53,242 bases of DNA from Escherichia phage CF2. Below the pieces are notes generated by a model. The model saw only the letters and a list, made by a program, of their open reading frames with translations. It was not told where the DNA came from and ran no database searches. Positions within the stretch are counted from its first letter, which is position 1; each line of letters opens with the position of its first letter. Made by a program: the position numbers and the translations under genes. The stretch lies in the sequence record KY608966. One strand, given 5' to 3'. Below, one piece after another: positions 4,938 to 43,999 of this stretch.

Positions 4938-5423
4938 ATGAAAATTGTTCAATTAGAGCCATATCCGCCTCAATTGGCTATCGTTTGCAGCGAAAAAGAG
5001 CACGAAGAGCTCCAAAAACTGATGGATTTGCCTGATTTTGGCAACTGGAATGACCGGGAAACACGTAATGCATCTACCTTTACATTCTCTCGCGTTAACT
5101 ATCCGTACCTGTTAATCGTCGTCGAACTGTACCACCCGGACGACCTGAAGTACAACACCATTTCCCACGAAGGCATTCACGTAATGTCATCGCTGATGAA
5201 CTATGTAGGGCTTAAATACGACCCAGAAAACGATGAATGGTACGCATATCAGCATGATTTCATCGTAAATGCCATTTGTAAGGCCCATGACGAGTATATA
5301 GAGCGCCAAAAAACGCCAAAAACTAAGCCAAAAATCGAAACAGGTAACCATCCTGCTATACTGCCACAAGACGTAATGAACTCGCTTTTGACTGACACTA
5401 CTGGGGACTTTTTAGGTGATTAA
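4938..5423 (+). CDS. Hypothetical protein with HExxH motif (possible zincin-like metallopeptidase)
   Basis: ORF 4926-5423 starts at GTG; first ATG at 4938; motif ISHEGIHVM. Confidence 0.55.
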   Translation: MKIVQLEPYPPQLAIVCSEKEHEELQKLMDLPDFGNWNDRETRNASTFTFSRVNYPYLLIVVELYHPDDLKYNTISHEGIHVMSSLMNYVGLKYDPENDEWYAYQHDFIVNAICKAHDEYIERQKTPKTKPKIETGNHPAILPQDVMNSLLTDTTGDFLGD

Positions 5424-6090
5424 TATAATCTTCGCAATGGGCCAAAATGGGGAATTCGGGTTGTCCCCGGAGTTTATGAAGCATCAGGTTGACTCGTGTA
5501 AGACCATGGAAGAGGTCCGTGCGCTTCCTAAATCGGGTCTACCCTGGAAATGTCCGTCAGACATGCTCTTTTTCAGGACTATGACTAATTCAGTTGCGAC
5601 AGAACCAGGCTATAATGCATATCAGCAACTACGTGGACAGTTCCCAAATGACCAGTTGCGAAACATGATAGCAGATGTAACGGTAAAAATGGTAGGGCAT
5701 AGTGTATTGTTAGCCGGTCGTAACACGTATATGACTATGAGTCTGCCTATGTCAGCCCACAGAATACTGCTGCCGGTATCTCGCCAGATTATGGCTTCAG
5801 AAGGCTACAATAATTTGGGTGAGATGGCAGCAGACCTTGAATCCAGAGGTACTGACGTCTGGATTGTAGGTGGTGCCGAATTGATACTTTCGGCCCTTGA
5901 AGAGCATGCAAAAGACTTACTCCGTATCGACAACATGTTTATCAGTACAATCAAGCAATCAGGTCCAAGTGATATTTTAATGGATCGTAGCAAATTAATG
6001 ATGTACATTGATAGCGACTTCACATATAATGATGAATATGTTGATAACAAACAAGTTCTGATACAACGGTATAGGAGTTTACACAAATGA
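5416..6090 (+). CDS. Dihydrofolate reductase, divergent with insertions
   Basis: IIFAMGQNGEFG...GLPWKCPSDMLFF...VLLAGRNTY...DVWIVGGAELI align to DHFR blocks; GTG start overlaps upstream stop. Confidence 0.6.
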   Translation: MINIIFAMGQNGEFGLSPEFMKHQVDSCKTMEEVRALPKSGLPWKCPSDMLFFRTMTNSVATEPGYNAYQQLRGQFPNDQLRNMIADVTVKMVGHSVLLAGRNTYMTMSLPMSAHRILLPVSRQIMASEGYNNLGEMAADLESRGTDVWIVGGAELILSALEEHAKDLLRIDNMFISTIKQSGPSDILMDRSKLMMYIDSDFTYNDEYVDNKQVLIQRYRSLHK

Positions 6091-6593
6091 ACATCATAAT
6101 CGAGGGTCCCGATAATGCAGGAAAAAGTACACTTATTGAGTTCCTTAAATCTCGTACTGGCCGCAATGTTATTCATAATACTGTTGATAAGGACCCCGAA
6201 TCGGTCATGGCTAAACAGGCCAAAGAAAACGCGTTGGAAGGCGATTGCATTTATGATCGTAGCGCTGTTATATCTGAGTATATCTATTGCCTGGTTCTTC
6301 AACGTACGCCTGTCATCAATATTAATGTATCACATGTAGCAGATATGTGCGACAACGCCATCGTTATCTTTTGTATGCCGCCTGTTGAAAAGGTACTGGC
6401 AACTACAAAAGACGAAATGCCTGGTGTTGTGGAAAATCTTGAGGCGTTATACAATCAGTATGACAACCTCATTGACGAGCTGGTTATGATGAGTAAGCAG
6501 TTCTTCATCTATGACTGGACTGTTGAAGAAGACGGTCCTGAAGCAGTTCTAGAATACATCAACGAACGTATTAATAAGGAGTGGAACAAATGA
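6087..6593 (+). CDS. Thymidylate-kinase-like dNMP kinase
   Basis: P-loop IIEGPDNAGKST resembles the thymidylate kinase IEGxxGxGKST signature; SD AGGAG 9 nt upstream. Confidence 0.75.
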   Translation: MNIIIEGPDNAGKSTLIEFLKSRTGRNVIHNTVDKDPESVMAKQAKENALEGDCIYDRSAVISEYIYCLVLQRTPVININVSHVADMCDNAIVIFCMPPVEKVLATTKDEMPGVVENLEALYNQYDNLIDELVMMSKQFFIYDWTVEEDGPEAVLEYINERINKEWNK

Positions 6594-7309
6594 GCCCAGT
6601 ATACAATAGCACAATTACACTGTCAGCAACCGTAGGAGACGTCAACAAGACTGTTACTGTGGGTTCAACTAACCCGAACCTGTCAGGCGAAGACCTGCTG
6701 CGCCTGGCCAAACGTGCTCTTGAAGATAACGAAGTGACTGGTACTGAAGGCGTCAGCATCGAAATTAACGTCGAAGGATGTCCGCACAGCATCAGTATTG
6801 CTACCTCTTCATTGCCGGATGATGAAACTCGTGAACAGCTGGAGACAGACAAGTTCAACGACGAGCTGGAATATCGCACTGGTGAGATGTTCAGCAATGC
6901 GTTAAACTGGTATCTGTGCAAAGCTTCAGGCTACACCGGTGCTCCTATGTCAGACCGTATGTTAGCTGATATGTCAGCACGTGAAATTGCTAAAGGCTGG
7001 GCGCATGTACAGATGCTACAGGAGCGTATCTGCAAACTGGAAAGCTGCAATAAAGATGCGTCTGAGCTTATTACTGCCTATAAGCGACAGATTAACGACC
7101 TGCAGCAACTAATGGGCAAACGCGCTGAAGAATATGAGGCTGAGATTCGTAGCCTTAACGGTACAGCTGTTGCTAACAACCGTGCTTTCAGCGAAGAGCG
7201 TAAAGCGCTTATCGCCCAGCGTGACGCTGAAAAACGTCGTGCAGACGACCTGGCAGACCGTCTCAACTTTATCCGTAAGCATATGGATGCTATGGAAGGG
7301 GTAATCTGA
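6590..7309 (+). CDS. Hypothetical protein with coiled-coil C-terminus
   Basis: ATG at 6590 overlaps the upstream stop (ATGA); SD AAGGAG. Confidence 0.65.
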   Translation: MSPVYNSTITLSATVGDVNKTVTVGSTNPNLSGEDLLRLAKRALEDNEVTGTEGVSIEINVEGCPHSISIATSSLPDDETREQLETDKFNDELEYRTGEMFSNALNWYLCKASGYTGAPMSDRMLADMSAREIAKGWAHVQMLQERICKLESCNKDASELITAYKRQINDLQQLMGKRAEEYEAEIRSLNGTAVANNRAFSEERKALIAQRDAEKRRADDLADRLNFIRKHMDAMEGVI

Positions 7310-34607: not shown

Positions 34608-36575
34608 TTAGTGTGCCTCTGCCCAGTTACTTTCTATCTTAGCATCAGTAAGAACAGGCACACGAAGCGGTAACACAGTTTCCATGACCCGTACGAAATC
34701 ATAGAATCCATCTTCTGCTTGCTTACCAGACGGTAGAGAGAAGTTAAGCTCATCGTGTACAGTCAGGCGAGGTACGCCAATAACGTCAAAGTAACCGTCT
34801 TCATACCCTTTCAGCATTGCAGACTTCATCTGGTCTGCTGACGACCCTTGCAGCACTCGGTTGATTGCCTTGTGGGTGTCTGCCAGTTTAATGTTCGGAC
34901 CGTACTCCTGACGTGCTTCTTCAAATGGCAAAGGCATCTTACCGAATCCACCACGCTTTGGAACCCATTTGTTGAACCATGTCTTCCGGCCCATAAAGGT
35001 TTCTACGTACCCCTGGCTATAACATAAATCTTCATAATGCTTCATGGTAGCACCAATGAATGGTGCACCCTGATGATACGCTTTCAGAACAGGTTCCGCT
35101 TCTTCAGGCGTCATTGCTAACTTACGGGCAAGAGCATTAAGCATCATGCCATACAACAAACCAAAGTTAATGGTCTTAGCCGGTTTACGCTCTATAACGT
35201 GACCTGAGGCTTCCTTGATAATATCGACCATAACATTGTGGTAATCTGCTTCCGGGTTAGCCGCGAAAATTGCTCGTAACTCATCAGCGCCCGGGCCGAC
35301 TGCAAAATGCGCCATGAATCGATATTCAATTTGGGCGTAGTCTGCTGATCCCCATCGGTGTCCGACATCCGGTACGAAACAAGCACGAAGGAGTGGTCCC
35401 AGTATTTTGTGTCGAGACGGTATATTCTGCAGATTAGGGTCAGATGAGCTAAACCGACCACTAACGGTTCCACCGTCATCACCGCGCATTTGATGGAATT
35501 GACCGTGAAGGAAGCCATTTGTATTCATCCCCAATATATAGCCACGAATAAACGTGGACTGGATTTTCTCATAAGACTTAATCTCAGACACCAGTTCCGC
35601 GAACGGATGGTGCAAGCCTGCTAAGAAGTCTGCCGTAAACGACGGATTGCCCGCCGCTGTTCTGAAGTACTCCAGACCTAAATGGTCAAATGCAAGAGCT
35701 AAGTCCGGACCTGAGTTAACGTTAATGTTAAAGCCAATCTGGTCTTTAATCTGCTGGTGCATTTTCCTTATTTCAGCGCTAAGCGTATCATCCGCTTCTT
35801 TTGCCTTGTCAAGGTCAACACGCACACCCGCAAAACGCATCTTAAGCATTAATGGAATGAGCTTGCACTCCATATAGAATACGTCTGTTAAACACCAGCG
35901 ACTTAACAAAGGCCACTGGGCTTTGATAATGTGTATTGGTAAGTCGGCGTCAGATTCAGCATAGTAACCCACAAGACGAGGAGGTGTTTTGTAGATGTAC
36001 TTTCTGGCTTCACCTGTTGGCTTACAGCCATAAGCATCTGAAATCCATTGGTACATCTCGGCTGAGTCTTTACCTTCGCCTACATACTTTCGTCCAAGTC
36101 CTTCAAGTGCAACACGCGCGCCTGGGTCAAGTAATGCTTCCGCGAATTGTACATCCATGCACAATCCTTTAACTTCCACGCCTTCTGCTGCAAGCCAGCC
36201 CAAGTCATATGTGATGTTAGCACCGACTTTAACTTGGTTAGGTCGCGAGAGTTCGAGCCGAAGCCAACCAAGTACTTCCTCAGCTGGAAGGTTATCCTCT
36301 TCGCCGAGCTCGTGTCTGATTGGGTAGTAAGCTTTGAAGCCGTTGTCCGTAGCGATACTAACTCCAACGATATGACCCTCCCTCCTGGCCCAACCACTAC
36401 CATTTGTATCCATCCCTGGGTCGTATGTTTCACAATCAAGACCGATAATCTTTGCAGAAGACAAGTCCGGGTAATGCGCGCGCGGCCGCCATCCAGTATC
36501 CCTGACGTACGGTATAGGACGGTTGATAGGTTTAACATTCTTTGCACCTTCGAAGCTATCGAATAAAAAGCTCAT
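34608..36575 (-). CDS. DNA polymerase I (family A) with 3'-5' exonuclease domain
   Basis: SSSDPNLQNIP, YAQIEYRFMAHFA, KTINFGLLYGM and VHDE match Pol A motifs; LDCET matches exo I. Confidence 0.9.
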   Translation of the reverse strand: MSFLFDSFEGAKNVKPINRPIPYVRDTGWRPRAHYPDLSSAKIIGLDCETYDPGMDTNGSGWARREGHIVGVSIATDNGFKAYYPIRHELGEEDNLPAEEVLGWLRLELSRPNQVKVGANITYDLGWLAAEGVEVKGLCMDVQFAEALLDPGARVALEGLGRKYVGEGKDSAEMYQWISDAYGCKPTGEARKYIYKTPPRLVGYYAESDADLPIHIIKAQWPLLSRWCLTDVFYMECKLIPLMLKMRFAGVRVDLDKAKEADDTLSAEIRKMHQQIKDQIGFNINVNSGPDLALAFDHLGLEYFRTAAGNPSFTADFLAGLHHPFAELVSEIKSYEKIQSTFIRGYILGMNTNGFLHGQFHQMRGDDGGTVSGRFSSSDPNLQNIPSRHKILGPLLRACFVPDVGHRWGSADYAQIEYRFMAHFAVGPGADELRAIFAANPEADYHNVMVDIIKEASGHVIERKPAKTINFGLLYGMMLNALARKLAMTPEEAEPVLKAYHQGAPFIGATMKHYEDLCYSQGYVETFMGRKTWFNKWVPKRGGFGKMPLPFEEARQEYGPNIKLADTHKAINRVLQGSSADQMKSAMLKGYEDGYFDVIGVPRLTVHDELNFSLPSGKQAEDGFYDFVRVMETVLPLRVPVLTDAKIESNWAEAH

Positions 36576-37570
36576 CAGTCCCCTCTCACATACGCAATTA
36601 CAACTGTACGAGTTGAGTTTTCCATTTTGAGCGCCTGACTACCCAGTCCTATTCTTTCCATGCCTTTAGCCAGTTTACTCATCTGACTAATAACACAGTT
36701 GAACGGTTTACTAAACTTAGTCGACTGGAACTTAATGTCGACGGACATCTTTGGAATAATCTTATCTGGTAAGTCTGCCTTTGCAGTTGACTCGCCTGTT
36801 ATCTCCAGAATAGCCTGACCTTCGTCGTACCCAGTAAGCTGGTCCATGACTTCCAGGAACTCAGGAGTGATGGCCTGCATATCCATTTCCATATTGAAGA
36901 ACTTCGATACGTCTGGCCATTTGGCTGCTAGTACCGGAGCATCCATCTGTACACCATCCGCAAAGCCGAAGAACATCTGGCCGCGGGCGTAACCTACACT
37001 TGTGGGTTCCATCTTCAGCTTAACCAGAGCCTCAAGCATTGGTTTGGCTATGGCACATTCAAATTCAAAATCTACATTCAACTTCTCGCGTATCATATAC
37101 TTACCGTTAGTTGCGTAAGCATAACCATCGCGCAGAAGTAAAGATGTTGCCCATATCTGCGGTGCTTCGTTAGGTACCCACTTGGCTAAGGCGGTTAATA
37201 CCGGGAGTAATTCGCCATGTGCTGAATACCAGTTGTTAACTGTAGCAAGCGGCGGTAATGGTTCATTAAGCGCTTGCATTCTTGTTTTAAGTACGCCTGC
37301 TGTGACTGTGAGGTTTCCAGCGGCTGTAATGTTAAAAGTAATCTGTTCAGTTCTTGCCGCATTAACGGCCTTACGAAATGATTCAGCATCCACTTGCAGG
37401 TCTGGGAATCCTTTACATGGCGCTCGTAGTAATACGTTCTTGTAGTATGAATGGATTGTTTCGTTTGCAATCCATATTTTACCCATAAGACCGCTATCAG
37501 TATACTTGATGGGACGAGCTTGTTGAACGGCAGTCTGTATTTGTTTGGTGTCATAGTTAAACTTGCTCAT
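36575..37570 (-). CDS. Hypothetical replication-module protein (331 aa)
   Basis: ORF track; ATGA overlap with polymerase start. Confidence 0.7.
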   Translation of the reverse strand: MSKFNYDTKQIQTAVQQARPIKYTDSGLMGKIWIANETIHSYYKNVLLRAPCKGFPDLQVDAESFRKAVNAARTEQITFNITAAGNLTVTAGVLKTRMQALNEPLPPLATVNNWYSAHGELLPVLTALAKWVPNEAPQIWATSLLLRDGYAYATNGKYMIREKLNVDFEFECAIAKPMLEALVKLKMEPTSVGYARGQMFFGFADGVQMDAPVLAAKWPDVSKFFNMEMDMQAITPEFLEVMDQLTGYDEGQAILEITGESTAKADLPDKIIPKMSVDIKFQSTKFSKPFNCVISQMSKLAKGMERIGLGSQALKMENSTRTVVIAYVRGD

Positions 37571-37600: not shown

Positions 37601-38485
37601 TTATACGGCCATTTGGAGTTTGATGTTCGGCATTGGTTTGTACTTCTCAACCATTGGCGCAACATCGGCAGGAGTGAAGTCAAATACTGACACGTCGTAA
37701 ATCGCGTTAATGTCAGGACGGCCTTCAAAGTTAGTGTCCAGGGTAGAATCAGAATTGCTTACGATACGTTGCAGGAAAATCTTTGCCGCGTCGATATGAT
37801 TCTGATAGATGTGATAATCACCCAGCGTAACAGTCATGTCGCCAACACCAGTGCCCAGCTCAGCAGCAATGGTAATCTGCAACATCTGATGAAGCAGGAT
37901 GTCATGTGGCAGACCAAGGATAACGTCCGCACTACGCATATGGAACATCAGCTCTAATTCATTACGGTTGTTAATGAACAGCTGAAAACCATGGTAACAA
38001 GGCGGAAGGGCCATGGCGTCCATCTCTTGTGGGTTCCATGCCGTAATGTATGCCCGGCGGTCAGTAGGCTTAACCTTCAACGTTTCAATAACGTCTTTAA
38101 GCTGGTTAGTAAGAACACCATTCTTATAGAAAGGCTTAACCCATTGTACGCCGTATACAGGACCTAAGTCACGGTTGTCTGGTGTACCCCAACGTTTGTT
38201 TGCGTCTTGCAGGTTACCTTCCCACCAGTTGCAGCCAAAGCCTTTGAGCGTGTCGACGTTTGAAATGCCGTTTATAAAGCAATAGAGCTCAGCAGCAACA
38301 GCTTTGATGTTAACAGGTTTAAACACAGGCACCATCAGTTTGTTGTCGTTGAAAGCCAGCTTAAATGCTGTACCAAAACAACGGCGGGTACCAACACCTG
38401 TACGGTCTACAACATCCTCACCTTTACGCAGGATAAAAGAAATGATGTCGCTGTAAAGAGAATCGATAGTGCTGTATGTTTTCAT
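37601..38485 (-). CDS. Thymidylate-synthase-family pyrimidine C5 transferase with Asp at the substrate-specifying position
   Basis: DRTGVGT, DLGPVYGVQW, ALPPCYHGFQ and RSADVILGLPHD align to ThyA; LPFN of ThyA is LPHD here. Confidence 0.8.
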   Translation of the reverse strand: MKTYSTIDSLYSDIISFILRKGEDVVDRTGVGTRRCFGTAFKLAFNDNKLMVPVFKPVNIKAVAAELYCFINGISNVDTLKGFGCNWWEGNLQDANKRWGTPDNRDLGPVYGVQWVKPFYKNGVLTNQLKDVIETLKVKPTDRRAYITAWNPQEMDAMALPPCYHGFQLFINNRNELELMFHMRSADVILGLPHDILLHQMLQITIAAELGTGVGDMTVTLGDYHIYQNHIDAAKIFLQRIVSNSDSTLDTNFEGRPDINAIYDVSVFDFTPADVAPMVEKYKPMPNIKLQMAV

Positions 38486-39078
38486 TAAAACAGTTCCTTT
38501 TGAGCCGGGTTAACGTGTGCGTCGATGATTGCCTGGATGTCAGGTGCTTTCCATCCCTCAGGCTTAACAATATCCTGACCGGACTTATGCTTGCTGTTGC
38601 TTGCATCAGGCTTAGCGCGTTCTTTCGCCATGTTAGCAGCCTGTACCGCATCCCATGCTGCGTCAAGTGGCCAGTTGTTGTTTGCACACCAGGTAATCAG
38701 GTGGATAATTAACTGGGCCAGACGGTCGCAATGAGTGTCTTCAGTATCCTTAACGTATACAATAAGGCCATCAGCATCGAAACGGTCCATAAATCCGCAT
38801 GGCGTAGTTAACAGAATCGGATACTCAAATTCGTTGGTGAACCATGCGGTCTGGTCATACAGGTATAACGTACCTGCAGCAATGTAAATTAAATCTACAA
38901 TACCGTCTAAGAAGCCAGCTTTGTCGCCGTCCTTCTTAGCTTGTTTAATTTCTTCCATCTCCTCAATAAGACGGTCGTAACGAAGCTTGAACTCAGGTTT
39001 ACCGCCTTGACTAACAGGCTTGAGGTCAAACTTCTCATGAAAAGCGGTAACGCCTGCAGCAATTTTACTGAATCGCAT
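38485..39078 (-). CDS. MazG-like all-alpha NTP pyrophosphohydrolase (candidate dCTPase/dUTPase)
   Basis: LRYDRLIEEMEEI...DGIVDLIY resembles the MazG/HisE E..E..E...D motif; stop overlaps the downstream ATG. Confidence 0.6.
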   Translation of the reverse strand: MRFSKIAAGVTAFHEKFDLKPVSQGGKPEFKLRYDRLIEEMEEIKQAKKDGDKAGFLDGIVDLIYIAAGTLYLYDQTAWFTNEFEYPILLTTPCGFMDRFDADGLIVYVKDTEDTHCDRLAQLIIHLITWCANNNWPLDAAWDAVQAANMAKERAKPDASNSKHKSGQDIVKPEGWKAPDIQAIIDAHVNPAQKELF

Positions 39079-39463
39079 TTCGTAACTCCTTACAAACAGT
39101 TTCGATAAACTTACGTTTAATTTCTGTAGACCAGATAATATGACGAGCCTGTTCTAAAGTGTCCCAACGTTCTTTACCCACAGGAAAGGGAACAATGAAA
39201 AGGCCGGTACGGGATATGCGCTTGATAAACGGGAATTTACAGCGCATGGTTGTTTCAAACTTGATAAAGTTTGTTTGCACATCGCGTGTAAACTTGACCT
39301 TATCAAATTCATGTTCAAGAGTTTGAGCAATGTTGCATACTTCCTGGAAAGAAGATGCAGGCAAGTAATCTTCGCGGCCGACGGTGTTCACGTAGTCGAT
39401 TTGGCCTTCTAGCCGAAGTATCCAAATCCTGTAATAAGCTTCAGCAACACGTTGTAGGTTCAT
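39065..39463 (-). CDS. Hypothetical protein (132 aa)
   Basis: ORF track; SD AGAGGAGAGA upstream. Confidence 0.6.
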   Translation of the reverse strand: MNLQRVAEAYYRIWILRLEGQIDYVNTVGREDYLPASSFQEVCNIAQTLEHEFDKVKFTRDVQTNFIKFETTMRCKFPFIKRISRTGLFIVPFPVGKERWDTLEQARHIIWSTEIKRKFIETVCKELRNAIQ

Positions 39464-42651: not shown

Positions 42652-43530
42652 TTATTTTAAGGAAAGTTTAACGGGCTCCTCATCCTGTGGGAAGACATCA
42701 GCAGGGCGATACTCATCGCAAGCCGCTAATTGCTCTTCGATTGTTTCGAGCTCTTTCTGGTGCTTGTTGCAATACCACACTTTGCCCTGAAGCGGTTTAC
42801 TGTAATGGCAGGTTCTGCAGTTCCTGTCGGGCATTGCTCCTTTGTGGCACAAGTGGTGGTACTCACACATTCCTGGCTTGCACTCCCACCAGATAGGCGA
42901 TTCAGAAATCTTCGGCATATCCAAACCAGATTCCGCATATACAACAGCCTCCGCTTTACTCAGTTGTATGTCGCTTTCCAGTAAGTCAATCTCGACCACT
43001 TCAAAATACATCTCGTCGGTGTTCTTGTTGATTGCAATATACACAGCTTGGTTCAGCTTAAGCTTCCGCATGTATACCTGCATCTGGGCGTAGTGTACCG
43101 GCTTACTTGCTTTAACAGACTTGAGCTTGACTAACTCTTTAAACGACTTATCGCCATGCGTCTTGAATTCAGCAAGTGCCCATACGCCTTTGTATTTGAT
43201 CACACAGTCACAAGACCCAGAGAAAATGCCATTGAATTCATGTATGCGCCATTGCTTACCAGTCTTAGGATTGACGTCCAGCACTTCGTCACATACGGAA
43301 CGAAGCCATTTTATAATTCTGCTTTCTTCAAGGTTACCGCGTTCAAACAGACGAAGTTGCTTAGCTGTAAACTTCTCCTTGAACGACCAATGCAGAACGT
43401 GCCAAAGATAGCGATAGCAGTTGTGTCCTATCTGCGATGCTCCAAGATGCCCGCGTCGTTCTTCTCTTTCGTGGGCTTCGACTATCTTGATGTCAATACG
43501 TTTCTGCAGGTCGTCAAACGGACTGGACAT
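42652..43530 (-). CDS. PD-(D/E)xK exonuclease (RecB/Cas4-like) with C-terminal Cys cluster
   Basis: ATG at 43530 with SD GAGGAG; HLGASQIGHNCYRYLW and AEFKT nuclease-like motifs. Confidence 0.6.
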   Translation of the reverse strand: MSSPFDDLQKRIDIKIVEAHEREERRGHLGASQIGHNCYRYLWHVLHWSFKEKFTAKQLRLFERGNLEESRIIKWLRSVCDEVLDVNPKTGKQWRIHEFNGIFSGSCDCVIKYKGVWALAEFKTHGDKSFKELVKLKSVKASKPVHYAQMQVYMRKLKLNQAVYIAINKNTDEMYFEVVEIDLLESDIQLSKAEAVVYAESGLDMPKISESPIWWECKPGMCEYHHLCHKGAMPDRNCRTCHYSKPLQGKVWYCNKHQKELETIEEQLAACDEYRPADVFPQDEEPVKLSLK

Positions 43531-43999
43531 TGTTAAACTCCTCAACACTGAATTCATCGTACACAATATTATGTGCCCACAAATGAGCGACGGCATTTGC
43601 CATGCTATCCTTCCATTTGGATTGTGAAGCTGTATGTGCCAATGCAACTACACGTACCAGGTTAAGGTTGGCTATCAGCATGTCAGCACAATGTTCGCAC
43701 GGCGGGTAGGTTATGTAGATGGTAACAGGGCCTAAAGAAGGAGTGTCTAACTCACTCCTTATGTTAGCTAAGGTGTTTATCTCGCTATGAATAGTTAGAG
43801 CGTTCTTGAGGCTATTAGGCACTATTCTTATAGAGTCTAACTGCGTAGGCAGACCGTTATATCCAGTGGAAATAATACGCTTGTTCTGGTCCACAAGAAC
43901 GCTACCGACTTGACGTTTCGGGTCCTTCGACCAGCTTGCAACTTCACAAGCTATGCGCATAAACCGCCTGTCCCACTTGTCCATCTTCTTCTTTTGCAT
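43514..43999 (-). CDS. dCMP deaminase
   Basis: Zinc-binding HSE and PCEHCA motifs; 161 aa; N-terminus typical of ComEB-like deaminases. Confidence 0.8.
   Translation of the reverse strand: MQKKKMDKWDRRFMRIACEVASWSKDPKRQVGSVLVDQNKRIISTGYNGLPTQLDSIRIVPNSLKNALTIHSEINTLANIRSELDTPSLGPVTIYITYPPCEHCADMLIANLNLVRVVALAHTASQSKWKDSMANAVAHLWAHNIVYDEFSVEEFNNVQSV

What the first reader, a model, noticed from the sequence alone, without database searches (positions are those of the whole stretch)
37601..39078. The thymidylate-synthase homologue carries Asp at the dUMP-specifying position and overlaps a MazG-like pyrophosphohydrolase: predicted cytosine modification of the phage DNA
The 294-aa protein aligns to thymidylate synthase across the main blocks, but where E. 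coli ThyA has LGLPFNIASY (Asn177) it has LGLPHDILLH. Established knowledge: that Asn specifies dUMP, T4 dCMP hydroxymethylase has Asp there, and Asn-to-Asp ThyA mutants methylate dCMP. The gene overlaps (TAATG) a MazG-like gene; T4 dCTPase gp56 is of that family. The genome also encodes dCMP deaminase (43514-43999), a thymidylate-kinase-like kinase (6087-6593) and DHFR (5416-6090), but no second thymidylate synthase. A coherent pathway is dCMP to 5-methyl-dCMP (DHFR recycling the folate), with MazG removing canonical dCTP; 5-hydroxymethyl-dC is the alternative. Either would give restriction evasion.
Basis: partly seen in the sequence, partly recalled or inferred. Interest (0 to 1): 0.8.

Follow-up and report, generated by a model that had tools for sequence, protein, structure and literature searches.

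The report
Phage enzyme predicted to methylate cytosine
This Salmonella/E. coli phage's only "thymidylate synthase" carries the active-site change that redirects such enzymes from dUMP to dCMP. With its neighbouring genes it very probably makes 5-methylcytosine DNA, as Xanthomonas phage Xp12 does, which would explain why DNA of a sister phage resists restriction enzymes.

Summary
The window is a complete Rosemountvirus-type genome. The 294-aa ThyA homologue (37601-38485, minus strand) has Asp195 where all 89 canonical ThyA hits have Asn177, and its ATG overlaps the stop of a MazG/PRA-PH pyrophosphohydrolase gene (TAATG).

- The protein keeps Leu160, Trp99, Val110-Tyr111 and the full TS C-terminal tail, so it has none of the published hydroxymethylase signatures.
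- It keeps Asp187, so it is not a 5-hydroxy-dCMP synthase.
- A DHFR gene is present.
- The same gene set (PRA-PH, Asp-type TS, dCMP-deaminase homologue, DHFR) occurs in the 5mC phages Xp12 and PaMx74.
- The window's MazG-like and deaminase proteins are homologous to the Xp12 ones.
- There is no second ThyA or ThyX, so dTMP probably comes from deaminating 5-methyl-dC nucleotides or from the host.

Published data show that DNA of sister phage S144 (same Asp, 73.5% identical TS) is cut only by enzymes with AT-only sites, whichever host it was grown on. No gene was assigned.

The TS clade sits nearer canonical ThyA than the Xp12 enzyme, so the Asn-to-Asp change is probably independent. This is a new member of a known kind. 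No chemistry was tested here.

The parts
37601..38485 (-). ThyA-family gene (294 aa), predicted deoxycytidylate 5-methyltransferase (5mdCMP synthase). Key residues in E. coli numbering: Cys163 (C146), Asp195 (N177), Leu160 (L143), Asp187 (D169), Tyr164 (H147), His194 (F176), Trp99 (W83), and the C-terminal tail ...I288-K-L-Q-M-A-V294.
   Evidence: PF00303 at 1.7e-62. Residue mapping from alignments. AlphaFold model pLDDT 91; best PDB matches are human and mouse TS, TM about 0.8.
37901..37903 (-). Codon GAC for Asp195, at the position of the dUMP-specifying Asn177 of E. coli ThyA. It is one base away from AAC (Asn).
   Evidence: Sequence read directly. Column content: 89 of 89 canonical hits have Asn; 31 of 33 rows of the phage clade (including the window and S144) have Asp.
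37997..38008 (-). Leu160-Pro-Pro-Cys163. This is the catalytic cysteine with the hydrophobic residue three positions upstream, where hydroxymethylases have Asp or Glu.
   Evidence: Codons CTT at 38006-38008 and TGT at 37997-37999, read. Signature rule from PMC6400193 and PMC13326640. The T4 gp42 and RB69 gp48 controls behave as published in the same alignment.
38485..39078 (-). MazG/PRA-PH-type all-alpha NTP pyrophosphohydrolase (197 aa) with an intact acidic motif (IEEMEEI ... LDGIVDL). Proposed dCTP pyrophosphatase that feeds dCMP to the methylase and depletes dCTP.
   Evidence: PF01503 at 31.8 bits against a cut-off of 21.3. phrog_671 nucleotide pyrophosphohydrolase, 9.7e-25. Homologous to the PRA-PH proteins next to the TS genes of PaMx74 (BLASTP 2e-8) and Xp12 (E 3.3e-6 in a 5.8-billion-sequence search; tblastn 1.4e-8). 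Substrate is inferred.
38483..38487 (-). TAATG stop/start overlap that couples the MazG-like and TS genes.
   Evidence: The same TAATG junction is kept in a relative whose proteins are only 41% (MazG-like) and 55% (TS) identical. PaMx74 has a 4-nt overlap at the equivalent junction.
39065..39463 (-). 132-aa ORF of unknown function. It overlaps the start of the MazG-like gene by 14 nt and is the first gene of the same transcription unit.
   Evidence: phrog_36727, unknown function. Conserved in S144 at 77% identity.
43514..43999 (-). dCMP-deaminase-family protein (161 aa). Proposed either to make dTMP/dTTP from 5-methyl-dC nucleotides or to make dUMP for the host ThyA.
   Evidence: PF00383 at 3.3e-21 plus MafB19-deam. 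33-34% identical over its full length to the deaminases of Xp12 and PaMx74. Best PDB match is 7FH4, the PBCV-1 dCMP/dCTP deaminase. Role inferred from preprint 10.1101/2024.12.05.627091.
5416..6090 (+). Divergent dihydrofolate reductase (224 aa). It is needed only if the TS homologue releases dihydrofolate, that is, if it carries out reductive methylation.
   Evidence: PF00186 at 30.6 bits against a cut-off of 25. phrog_316, 1.9e-26. Weak similarity to the Xp12 DHFR (2e-5). The DHF-versus-THF logic is from PMC6400193.
6087..6593 (+). P-loop dNMP/thymidylate-kinase-like kinase (168 aa) that overlaps the DHFR gene by 4 nt. Proposed to phosphorylate 5mdCMP and dTMP.
   Evidence: phrog_761 thymidylate kinase, 1.7e-26. 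Pfam dNK and Thymidylate_kin hits are below cut-off. GPDNAGKST P-loop read from the sequence.
34608..37570 (-). Sliding-clamp-like processivity factor (36575-37570) and family-A DNA polymerase (34608-36575), immediately downstream of the TS gene on the same strand. This polymerase would have to accept 5mdCTP.
   Evidence: phrog_947. BP63 annotation. DNA_pol_A is among the domains most often co-localised with deaminases on C-modified metagenomic contigs.

Best explanation
The gene at 37601-38485 encodes a ThyA-derived deoxycytidylate 5-methyltransferase. It uses methylene-tetrahydrofolate to convert dCMP to 5-methyl-dCMP and releases dihydrofolate.

Proposed pathway, with the status of each step:
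1. The translationally coupled MazG/PRA-PH enzyme hydrolyses dCTP to dCMP. This supplies substrate and removes the competing canonical triphosphate. (Inferred.)
2. The Asp195 enzyme methylates dCMP. (Inferred from sequence signatures and tested homologues.)
3. The phage kinase and host NDP kinase raise 5mdCMP to 5mdCTP. (Inferred.)
4. The phage PolA incorporates it, so that virion DNA carries 5-methylcytosine in place of most or all cytosine. (Inferred; supported indirectly by the restriction resistance of S144 DNA.)
5. The phage DHFR regenerates tetrahydrofolate. (Inferred.)
6. The dCMP-deaminase homologue supplies thymidylate, either by deaminating 5-methyl-dC nucleotides as proposed for Xp12, or by making dUMP for the host ThyA. 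The phage has no dUMP-specific synthase of its own. (Absence shown; route inferred.)

The outcome would be protection from most type II restriction enzymes.
For: Substrate switch.
- Asp195 aligns with Asn177 in three alignments.
- 89 of 89 canonical hits have Asn.
- Position 147 is also changed (His to Tyr). Positions 177 and 147 were the two positions most associated with C-modified metagenomic contigs (PMC8670742).
- Mutagenesis in the literature (N177D in E. coli, N229D in L. casei, as cited) turns TS into a dCMP methylase.

Methyl rather than hydroxymethyl or hydroxy product.
- Leu160, Trp99, Val110-Tyr111 and the complete C-terminal tail are kept, and Asp187 is kept.
- The published hydroxymethylase signature is Asp/Glu three residues before the catalytic Cys, a Ser/Thr near the catalytic Tyr, and no C-terminal tail (PMC6400193). 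None of these is present.
- The 5-hydroxy-dCMP synthase signature D169N (PMC13326640) is absent.
- T4 gp42 and RB69 gp48 show their published residues in the same alignment.
- The structural model's best PDB matches are full-length human and mouse TS.
- A DHFR gene is present, although the only TS homologue is the Asp type.

Same module as proven 5mC phages.
- Xp12 carries PRA-PH, TS, deaminase and DHFR. PaMx74 carries PRA-PH, TS (overlapping), cd and frd.
- The MazG-like and deaminase proteins are homologous between the window and these phages.
- The Xp12 TS and five of seven metagenomic Asp-type TS made 5mdC in vivo.

Conservation.
- 31 of 33 clade rows keep Asp.
- The deaminase ... MazG-TAATG-TS-clamp-PolA order persists at 50-55% TS identity.

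Phenotype in a sister genus.
- S144 has a TS 73.5% identical with the same Asp and the same synteny.
- Its DNA resists XhoI, EheI, Bsp120I, Cfr42I and SspDI, and is cut by SspI and PacI, after growth on three different hosts.
- Xp12 5mC DNA resists 196 of 218 enzymes, including ApaI (GGGCCC, the same site as Bsp120I).
Against: - No measurement exists for this phage or genus. No paper in the searchable library reports 5mC in Rosemountvirus.
- The S144 digests would also fit a guanine modification or another C5 modification.
- The product rules (L143, C-terminal tail) rest on few characterised enzymes. Xp12 itself aligns Gln, not Leu, at position 143 in a gapped loop.
- Two of seven Asp-type TS tested in the preprint gave no 5mdC.
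- The window enzyme is only 28-29% identical to the Xp12 and PaMx74 TS. It also has unusual His194 and Tyr164, whose effects are unknown.
- MazG substrate specificity cannot be read from sequence.
- 5mC DNA should be a target of McrBC/Mrr-type enzymes, which are common in E. coli. No counter-measure was identified.
Confidence: 0.62

Rival explanations
1. The enzyme is a dCMP hydroxymethylase, as in T4. Virion DNA would carry 5-hydroxymethylcytosine, perhaps further decorated.
For: Asp at the specificity position is shared with T4 gp42. T-even phages of the same hosts use this route. The S144 restriction pattern does not separate 5mC from 5hmC.
Against: - None of the hydroxymethylase signatures is present: Leu160 instead of Asp/Glu, no Ser/Thr next to the catalytic Tyr, Trp99 kept, full C-terminal tail.
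- Only 22% identity to gp42, against 33-38% to canonical ThyA.
- A DHFR would be unnecessary for this route.
- No glycosyl-, carbamoyl- or other transferase, and no TET-like domain, was found in the ORFs scanned or in the BP63 annotation.
Confidence: 0.1
2. The pathway exists only to make thymidylate (dCMP to 5mdCMP, then deamination to dTMP). Little or no 5mC would end up in virion DNA.
For: The phage has no dUMP-specific TS. Its deaminase belongs to the family in which 5mC-selective deaminases were found. Xp12 is reported to derive thymidylate this way.
Against: In Xp12 and PaMx74 the same module goes with complete replacement of C. A conserved, translationally coupled NTP pyrophosphohydrolase makes most sense as a means of excluding dCTP. 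S144 DNA is modified at or next to G:C pairs. The host ThyA already provides dTMP.
Confidence: 0.1
3. It is still an ordinary (or dual-specificity) thymidylate synthase. Together with the dCMP deaminase, DHFR and thymidylate kinase it would form the classical phage dTMP pathway, as every GenBank record annotates it.
For: All other catalytic and folate-binding residues are canonical. It passes the NCBIfam TIGR03284 cut-off (172 against 108 bits). The cd-td-frd-tmk set is classical. Two clade members (P0013, P0020) carry Asn on the same scaffold.
Against: Asn177 is invariant in 89 of 89 canonical hits. Published N177D/N229D mutants switch to dCMP (cited). Asp is conserved in 31 of 33 clade rows across about 50% sequence divergence. 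Other NCBIfam equivalog cut-offs are missed by a wide margin. This reading would leave the S144 modification without any candidate gene.
Confidence: 0.08
4. The restriction resistance seen in the sister phage has another cause (a guanine or other modification, or an as yet unrecognised C5 product), and the Asp-type enzyme is unrelated to it.
For: All enzymes that failed on S144 have G+C-rich sites, so G modification is not formally excluded. TS homologues have recently shown unexpected chemistry, such as flavin-dependent 5-hydroxylation.
Against: No 7-deazaguanine genes (DpdA/QueC-E-type) or other modification genes appear in the annotations or scans. The D169N marker of 5-hydroxylases is absent.
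Confidence: 0.05

Closest known systems
Xanthomonas phage Xp12 / Pseudomonas phage PaMx74 5mdCMP synthase module (deoxycytidylate 5-methyltransferase, EC 2.1.1.54; Mesyanzhinovviridae, Bradleyvirinae)
   Same: ThyA-family enzyme with Asp at the Asn177 position, Asp169 kept and a C-terminal tail present. An adjacent PRA-PH/MazG-type pyrophosphohydrolase gene overlaps or abuts the TS gene. A dCMP-deaminase homologue (33-34% identical) and a DHFR are present. There is no separate dUMP-specific TS.
   Different: - The TS is only 28-29% identical and does not group with the Xp12 clade. It is nearer canonical ThyA (33-38%), which suggests an independent Asn-to-Asp change.
- Different second-shell residues: Tyr164/His194 here against Pro/Tyr in Xp12.
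- In the window the genes are dispersed (DHFR and kinase about 31 kb from the TS gene, deaminase 5 kb away), not in one cassette.
- The virion is a myovirus of Enterobacteriaceae rather than a siphovirus of Xanthomonas or Pseudomonas.
- The window has its own kinase, for which no Xp12 homologue was found.
Canonical thymidylate synthase ThyA (EC 2.1.1.45)
   Same: Fold, dimer-type scaffold, catalytic Cys, Arg21/126/127/166, Glu58, Tyr94, Trp80/83, Leu143, Asp169, His207/Tyr209 and the C-terminal tail. Reductive methyl transfer is expected.
   Different: Asn177 to Asp, His147 to Tyr, Phe176 to His. There is also a roughly 8-residue insertion after Trp80 and a longer small domain.
T4 gp42 dCMP hydroxymethylase with gp56 dCTPase
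   Same: Logic of the pathway: an NTP pyrophosphatase removes dCTP and yields dCMP, a TS homologue with Asp modifies C5 before replication, and a phage kinase follows.
   Different: Hydroxymethylase signature residues are absent and the C-terminal tail is present. Identity to gp42 is 22%. The MazG-like protein has no detectable similarity to gp56. No glucosyltransferases were found.
RB69 gp48 / DLP3 gp80 5-hydroxy-dCMP synthases
   Same: TS homologue with Asp at position 177, acting on dCMP.
   Different: These have D169N and L143E. The window protein keeps Asp187 and Leu160. No sugar-nucleotide or glycosyltransferase genes are present.

Membership tests
Thymidylate synthase / dCMP hydroxymethylase superfamily (Pfam PF00303) | Full-length match to the family profile above the curated cut-off | tested here: met
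   211.4 bits against a cut-off of 24.3, covering profile positions 3-266 of 266. phrog_160, 4e-80.
Thymidylate synthase / dCMP hydroxymethylase superfamily (Pfam PF00303) | TS fold with catalytic Cys and the phosphate-binding arginines | tested here: met
   AlphaFold pLDDT 91, pTM 0.90. Foldseek against human and mouse TS gives TM about 0.8, E about 1e-23. Cys163, Arg28, Arg143/144 and Arg184 align with C146, R21, R126/127 and R166.
Canonical ThyA (dUMP to dTMP) | Asn at E. coli position 177 (hydrogen bonds to O4/N3-H of uracil) | tested here: not met
   Asp195. 89 of 89 canonical hits have Asn.
Canonical ThyA (dUMP to dTMP) | His147 and Phe176 in the active-site shell | tested here: not met
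   Tyr164 and His194. Canonical hits have His in 89 of 89 and Phe in 89 of 89.
Canonical ThyA (dUMP to dTMP) | Passes the NCBIfam equivalog cut-offs | tested here: inconclusive
   TIGR03284: 172 against 108 bits (passes). NF002497: 187 against 327, and five others are far below cut-off.
dCMP 5-methyltransferase (Xp12 type) | Asp at position 177 | tested here: met
   Asp195. Xp12 and PaMx74 also have Asp in the same alignment.
dCMP 5-methyltransferase (Xp12 type) | Machinery for hydride transfer kept: hydrophobic residue at 143, Asp169, Trp83, C-terminal tail | tested here: met
   Leu160, Asp187, Trp99, tail I288...M292-A293-V294. Rules from PMC6400193 and PMC13326640.
dCMP 5-methyltransferase (Xp12 type) | Genomic association with a PRA-PH/MazG pyrophosphohydrolase, a dCMP-deaminase homologue and DHFR | tested here: met
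   Window. Xp12 and PaMx74. Homology of the partner proteins.
dCMP 5-methyltransferase (Xp12 type) | Common descent with the Xp12/PaMx74 enzyme clade | tested here: not met
   28-29% identity. The neighbour-joining tree places the window clade beside canonical ThyA, apart from Xp12/PaMx74. A distance tree only, with no support values.
dCMP 5-methyltransferase (Xp12 type) | Enzyme forms 5-methyl-dCMP and DHF from dCMP and methylene-THF; virion DNA contains 5mC | not testable with these tools
   Only indirect evidence: the published restriction resistance of S144 DNA.
dCMP hydroxymethylase (T4 gp42 type) | [quoted passage not shown] | tested here: not met
   Leu160. T4 has Asp and RB69 has Glu in the same column.
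dCMP hydroxymethylase (T4 gp42 type) | Ser/Thr near the catalytic Tyr; Val in place of Trp83; no C-terminal tail | tested here: not met
   Pro109-Val110-Tyr111, Trp99, full tail.
5-hydroxy-dCMP synthase (RB69 gp48 type) | Asn at position 169 (D169N) | tested here: not met
   Asp187. RB69 gp48 shows Asn in the same alignment.
MazG / PRA-PH all-alpha NTP pyrophosphohydrolase | Profile match above cut-off and the acidic metal-binding motif | tested here: met
   PF01503: 31.8 bits against a cut-off of 21.3. 'IEEMEEI' and 'LDGIVDL' read from the translation. Weak PDB hits to the MazG-like DR2231 and to 3nl9.
MazG / PRA-PH all-alpha NTP pyrophosphohydrolase | dCTP as preferred substrate (dCTPase role) | not testable with these tools
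   Inferred only from the conserved coupling to the Asp-type TS.

The most novel reading that the evidence does not exclude
Rosemountvirus, Loughboroughvirus and their relatives would be the first phages of Enterobacteriaceae with cytosine wholly replaced by 5-methylcytosine. On this reading the dCMP methylase arose from a canonical ThyA independently of the Xp12 lineage, with its own second-shell changes (His147 to Tyr, Phe176 to His). Both pyrimidines of the phage DNA would pass through this one enzyme, with thymidylate made by deaminating 5-methyl-dC nucleotides, so the phage would not depend on dUMP methylation. The phages would also need an unidentified way to escape McrBC/Mrr-type restriction.
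Probability: 0.3. Interest if true: 0.6.

Novelty: new member of a known kind. Interest (0 to 1): 0.5.

Why it matters
- These roughly 53-kb myophages are isolated again and again, and several are studied for Salmonella and E. coli biocontrol. Their records annotate the gene as plain thymidylate synthase.
- The S144 study found modified DNA but could not name a gene.
- Assigning the modification to a 5mdCMP pathway would explain resistance to type II restriction.
- It predicts sensitivity to 5mC-dependent nucleases such as McrBC, Mrr and MspJI-like enzymes, which would be a host-range determinant.
- It warns of artefacts in nanopore base-calling, restriction cloning and bisulfite-type assays.
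- It offers a second, ThyA-proximal lineage for studying how one Asn-to-Asp change plus a few shell residues re-targets a central metabolic enzyme.
- The two natural Asn variants on the same scaffold are a ready-made comparison.

Tried and rejected
- Palindrome and restriction-site avoidance as an indirect sign of C modification. AT-only and G+C-containing palindromes are equally near expectation (O/E 0.92 against 0.89), so the test is uninformative. Only GATC and GATATC stand out.
- Direct similarity of the MazG-like protein to T4 gp56. None was found, and gp56 hits a different Pfam family.
- Similarity of the window PolA to the Xp12 PolA as a sign of a shared polymerase adapted to 5mC. Only 26% identity over 259 residues, too weak to argue from.
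- Literature on Rosemountvirus isolates (swi3, vB_SenM-1, PA13076, LPSEYT, ZCSE2, AV127, SPLA phages). None reports restriction digests or base composition.
- PDB sequence search for the MazG-like protein. Only marginal hits (E 0.03-0.3).
- Search for a second TS. tblastn with E. coli ThyA and a recalled ThyX sequence, plus a ThyX-motif scan in six frames, found nothing.
- Search for downstream hypermodification enzymes among ten further ORFs of the early and replication regions. No glycosyltransferase, TET/JBP or carbamoyltransferase domains.
It was repeated with the clade alignment.
Full report
**What the window is.** The 53,242-bp window is 96-97% identical in nucleotides over the region of interest to some 45 deposited phage genomes of about 52-54 kb. 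They are all Rosemountvirus-type myophages of Salmonella and E. coli, such as BP63, LPSEYT, swi3 and yarpen. The window therefore amounts to a whole phage genome. In those records the gene in question is annotated as 'thymidylate synthase', and its neighbour as hypothetical, 'Cof hydrolase' or 'nucleotide pyrophosphohydrolase'.

**Check of the observation.** Both genes lie on the minus strand: the 294-aa ORF at 37601-38485 and the 197-aa ORF at 38485-39078. Read on that strand, the junction is AAG GAA CTG TTT TAATG AAA ACA. The TAA stop and the ATG start share one base, and an AAGGA sits at Shine-Dalgarno distance.
- The 294-aa protein matches Pfam Thymidylat_synt end to end (1.7e-62) and PHROG 160 (4e-80).
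- phmmer against PDB sequences aligns 'rsadvilglphdillh' with 'rsadlflgvpfniasy' of M. tuberculosis ThyA without gaps.
- MAFFT alignments of 25 and of 127 sequences give the same register.
- Asp195 (codon GAC, 37901-37903) therefore stands where E. coli has Asn177.
- Among the 89 canonical ThyA proteins returned by the homology search, that column is Asn in every one. Positions 143, 147, 169 and 176 are also invariant there: Leu, His, Asp and Phe.

- dCMP deaminase at 43514-43999 (PF00383, 3.3e-21).
- A divergent DHFR at 5416-6090 (PF00186, 30.6 bits against a cut-off of 25; PHROG 316, 1.9e-26).
- A P-loop thymidylate-kinase-like protein at 6087-6593 (PHROG 761, 1.7e-26; Pfam hits below cut-off).
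- No second ThyA and no ThyX motif exist in any frame.

**What the enzyme most likely does.** Three recent papers give residue rules for this family.
- Asp at position 177 marks dCMP as substrate. N177D and N229D mutants of bacterial TS methylate dCMP (cited in PMC13326640, and PMC8670742).
- A metagenomic association study found positions 177 and 147 to be the two TS positions most associated with C-modified contigs. The window protein is changed at both (Asp195, Tyr164).
- The T4 hydroxymethylase ternary-complex study defines hydroxymethylases by three features: an Asp or Glu three residues before the catalytic Cys (D145N is inactive), a Ser/Thr beside the catalytic Tyr, and loss of the C-terminal tail that seals the TS active site for hydride transfer. 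Val also replaces Trp83 (PMC6400193).
- The 2026 study of 5-hydroxycytosine adds D169N as the mark of flavin-dependent 5-hydroxy-dCMP synthases.

In my alignment the controls behave as published.
- T4 gp42 has Asp at 143 and Asp at 177.
- RB69 gp48 has Glu at 143, Asn at 169 and Asp at 177.
- Xp12 and PaMx74 have Asp at 169 and Asp at 177.

The window protein has Leu160, Asp187, Trp99, Pro109-Val110-Tyr111 and a complete tail ending Ile288-Lys-Leu-Gln-Met-Ala-Val294. An AlphaFold model built on the clade alignment is confident (pLDDT 91). Its best structural matches in the PDB are full-length human and mouse TS (TM about 0.8). So the protein looks like a thymidylate synthase in every respect needed for reductive methyl transfer, but with the base-specificity residue switched. 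The predicted reaction is dCMP plus methylene-THF giving 5-methyl-dCMP plus DHF. A phage DHFR in a genome whose only TS homologue is the Asp type fits this, since hydroxymethylases release THF and need no DHFR.

**The partner genes.** The 197-aa protein passes the Pfam PRA-PH cut-off (31.8 against 21.3 bits). It has the acidic helix motifs of MazG-type enzymes (IEEMEEI, LDGIVDL).

Xanthomonas phage Xp12 is the classical phage with complete 5mC substitution. Its gene order is PRA-PH, TS, dCMP deaminase, DHFR. The first of these is annotated 'HAD hydrolase' but matches PRA-PH at 6.6e-15. PaMx74, which the NEB preprint states also replaces C by 5mC, has PRA-PH, TS (4-nt overlap), cd and frd.

The window's partner proteins are homologous to these.
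- The MazG-like protein aligns with the PaMx74 PRA-PH protein (2e-8).
- It retrieves the Xp12 protein in a 5.8-billion-sequence search (3.3e-6).
- The deaminase is 33-34% identical over its full length to those of Xp12 and PaMx74.
- The deaminase's best PDB relative is the PBCV-1 dCMP/dCTP deaminase 7FH4. The preprint names the same structure as nearest to its 5mC-selective deaminase.

That preprint also reports several relevant results.
- Thymidylate synthase, MafB19-deam, PRA-PH and DNA_pol_A are the domains most often found beside deaminases on C-modified contigs.
- The Xp12 TS and five of seven linked Asp-type TS made 5mdC in vivo.
- Such deaminases probably make dTTP from 5mdCTP, which removes the need for a dUMP-specific synthase.

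The window fits that description gene for gene. The roles of the MazG-like protein (dCTPase), the kinase and the deaminase remain inferences.

**Conservation.** The homology search shows a sharp break: 31 proteins at 48-98% identity, nearly all on 45-54-kb contigs, then ordinary bacterial ThyA at about 37%.
- In the 50%-identity library the whole clade collapses to one representative (521 bits). The next hit scores 245 bits.
- Within the clade, Asp is present in 31 of 33 rows counting the window and S144, and Tyr164 and His194 in all.
- Two short-contig members (P0013, P0020) have Asn together with Arg127 to Lys.
- Two relatives at 50-55% TS identity keep the order deaminase, exonuclease, helicase, ORF, MazG-like, TS, clamp, PolA. 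One of them, which was read, has the identical TAATG junction.
- A distance tree puts the clade beside canonical ThyA (33-38% identity) and apart from Xp12/PaMx74 (28-29% to the window, 25-29% across the clade). This suggests an independent Asn-to-Asp change, but the tree has no support values.
- Among the next 149 representatives, 21 also have Asp177 with Leu143, Asp169 and a TS-like tail. Nine of the twelve best-scoring are of this type. The clade is therefore part of a wider, mostly uncharacterised radiation of predicted dCMP methylases.

**Experimental evidence from a sister genus.** Phage S144 (Loughboroughvirus) has a TS 73.5% identical with the same Asp and the same synteny.
- Its DNA, grown on three different hosts, was not cut by XhoI, EheI, Bsp120I, Cfr42I or SspDI despite 2-5 sites each. 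It was cut by SspI and PacI, whose sites contain only A and T.
- The authors concluded that cytosine may be modified. They found no responsible gene and treated the TS as part of a dTTP pathway.
- Xp12 5mC DNA resists 196 of 218 type II enzymes, including ApaI at the Bsp120I site, so the pattern is what full 5mC would give.
- The pattern does not by itself exclude 5hmC or a guanine modification.
- No paper in the searchable library reports base composition or digests for Rosemountvirus itself.

**Verdict.** The evidence narrows it to 5-methyl rather than 5-hydroxymethyl. Rivals retained are a hydroxymethylase (about 0.10), a pathway serving only thymidylate supply (about 0.10), an ordinary or dual TS (about 0.08), and an unrelated cause of the S144 phenotype (about 0.05).

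The kind of system is known from Xp12, PaMx74 and metagenomic contigs, and the Asn177Asp rule dates from 1992. This is therefore a new member of a known kind, not a new mechanism. Its value lies in four points:
- it assigns a gene basis to an unexplained published phenotype;
- it corrects the annotation of a widely isolated group of biocontrol phages;
- it predicts sensitivity to 5mC-dependent restriction;
- it points to a probably independent ThyA-proximal origin, with natural Asn variants for comparison.

All chemistry remains to be measured.

Noticed in passing
whole window (1-53242): GATC is strongly avoided: 29 sites against about 158 expected (O/E 0.18, z about -10). GATATC is absent against about 11.5 expected. 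Other G+C-containing 4-mer palindromes are near expectation. The cause is unknown. Dam/MutH or m6A-dependent nucleases are possibilities.
   Followed up: partly
proteins P0013 and P0020 (contigs of 1.0-1.6 kb), relatives of window 37601-38485: Two members nested inside the Asp-type clade carry Asn at position 177 together with Arg127 to Lys, while keeping the clade-specific Tyr147 and His176. They may be natural reversions, or ancestral-like forms, on the same scaffold.
   Followed up: partly
L003:46207-46980 (Xp12, QNN97215): The Xp12 gene next to its TS is annotated 'hydrolase (HAD superfamily)' but matches Pfam PRA-PH (MazG-like) at 6.6e-15. The 'Cof hydrolase' labels on the Rosemountvirus homologues are the same mis-annotation.
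   Followed up: yes
window 6581-7309 (+): A 242-aa ORF directly follows and overlaps the DHFR-kinase pair. It is conserved (phrog_37540) but has no Pfam match. It may be another pathway component.
   Followed up: no
window 38485-39078 (-), residues about 72-117: The MazG-like protein has an insertion of about 45 residues between its two conserved helical segments, relative to the PaMx74 and Xp12 PRA-PH proteins.
   Followed up: no
GenBank PP583539.1, matching window 37601-39078: The best nucleotide match (97.3%) is deposited as a 'Listeria phage' with host Listeria monocytogenes, although it is a typical Rosemountvirus of enterobacteria. The host assignment is probably an error or a contaminant.
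   Followed up: no
representatives P0158-P0293: Among 21 further Asp177-type TS homologues, the neighbouring Phe176 is often replaced (Ala, Ser, Asn, Cys, His or Gln in 11 of 21). Across all 149 representatives, which are mostly Asn-type, Phe or Tyr account for 133. This hints at a coupled change at positions 176 and 177.
   Followed up: partly
window 39065-39463 (-): A 132-aa ORF of unknown function (phrog_36727) overlaps the start of the MazG-like gene by 14 nt. It heads the ORF132, MazG-like, TS, clamp, PolA gene string and is conserved in S144 at 77% identity.
   Followed up: no
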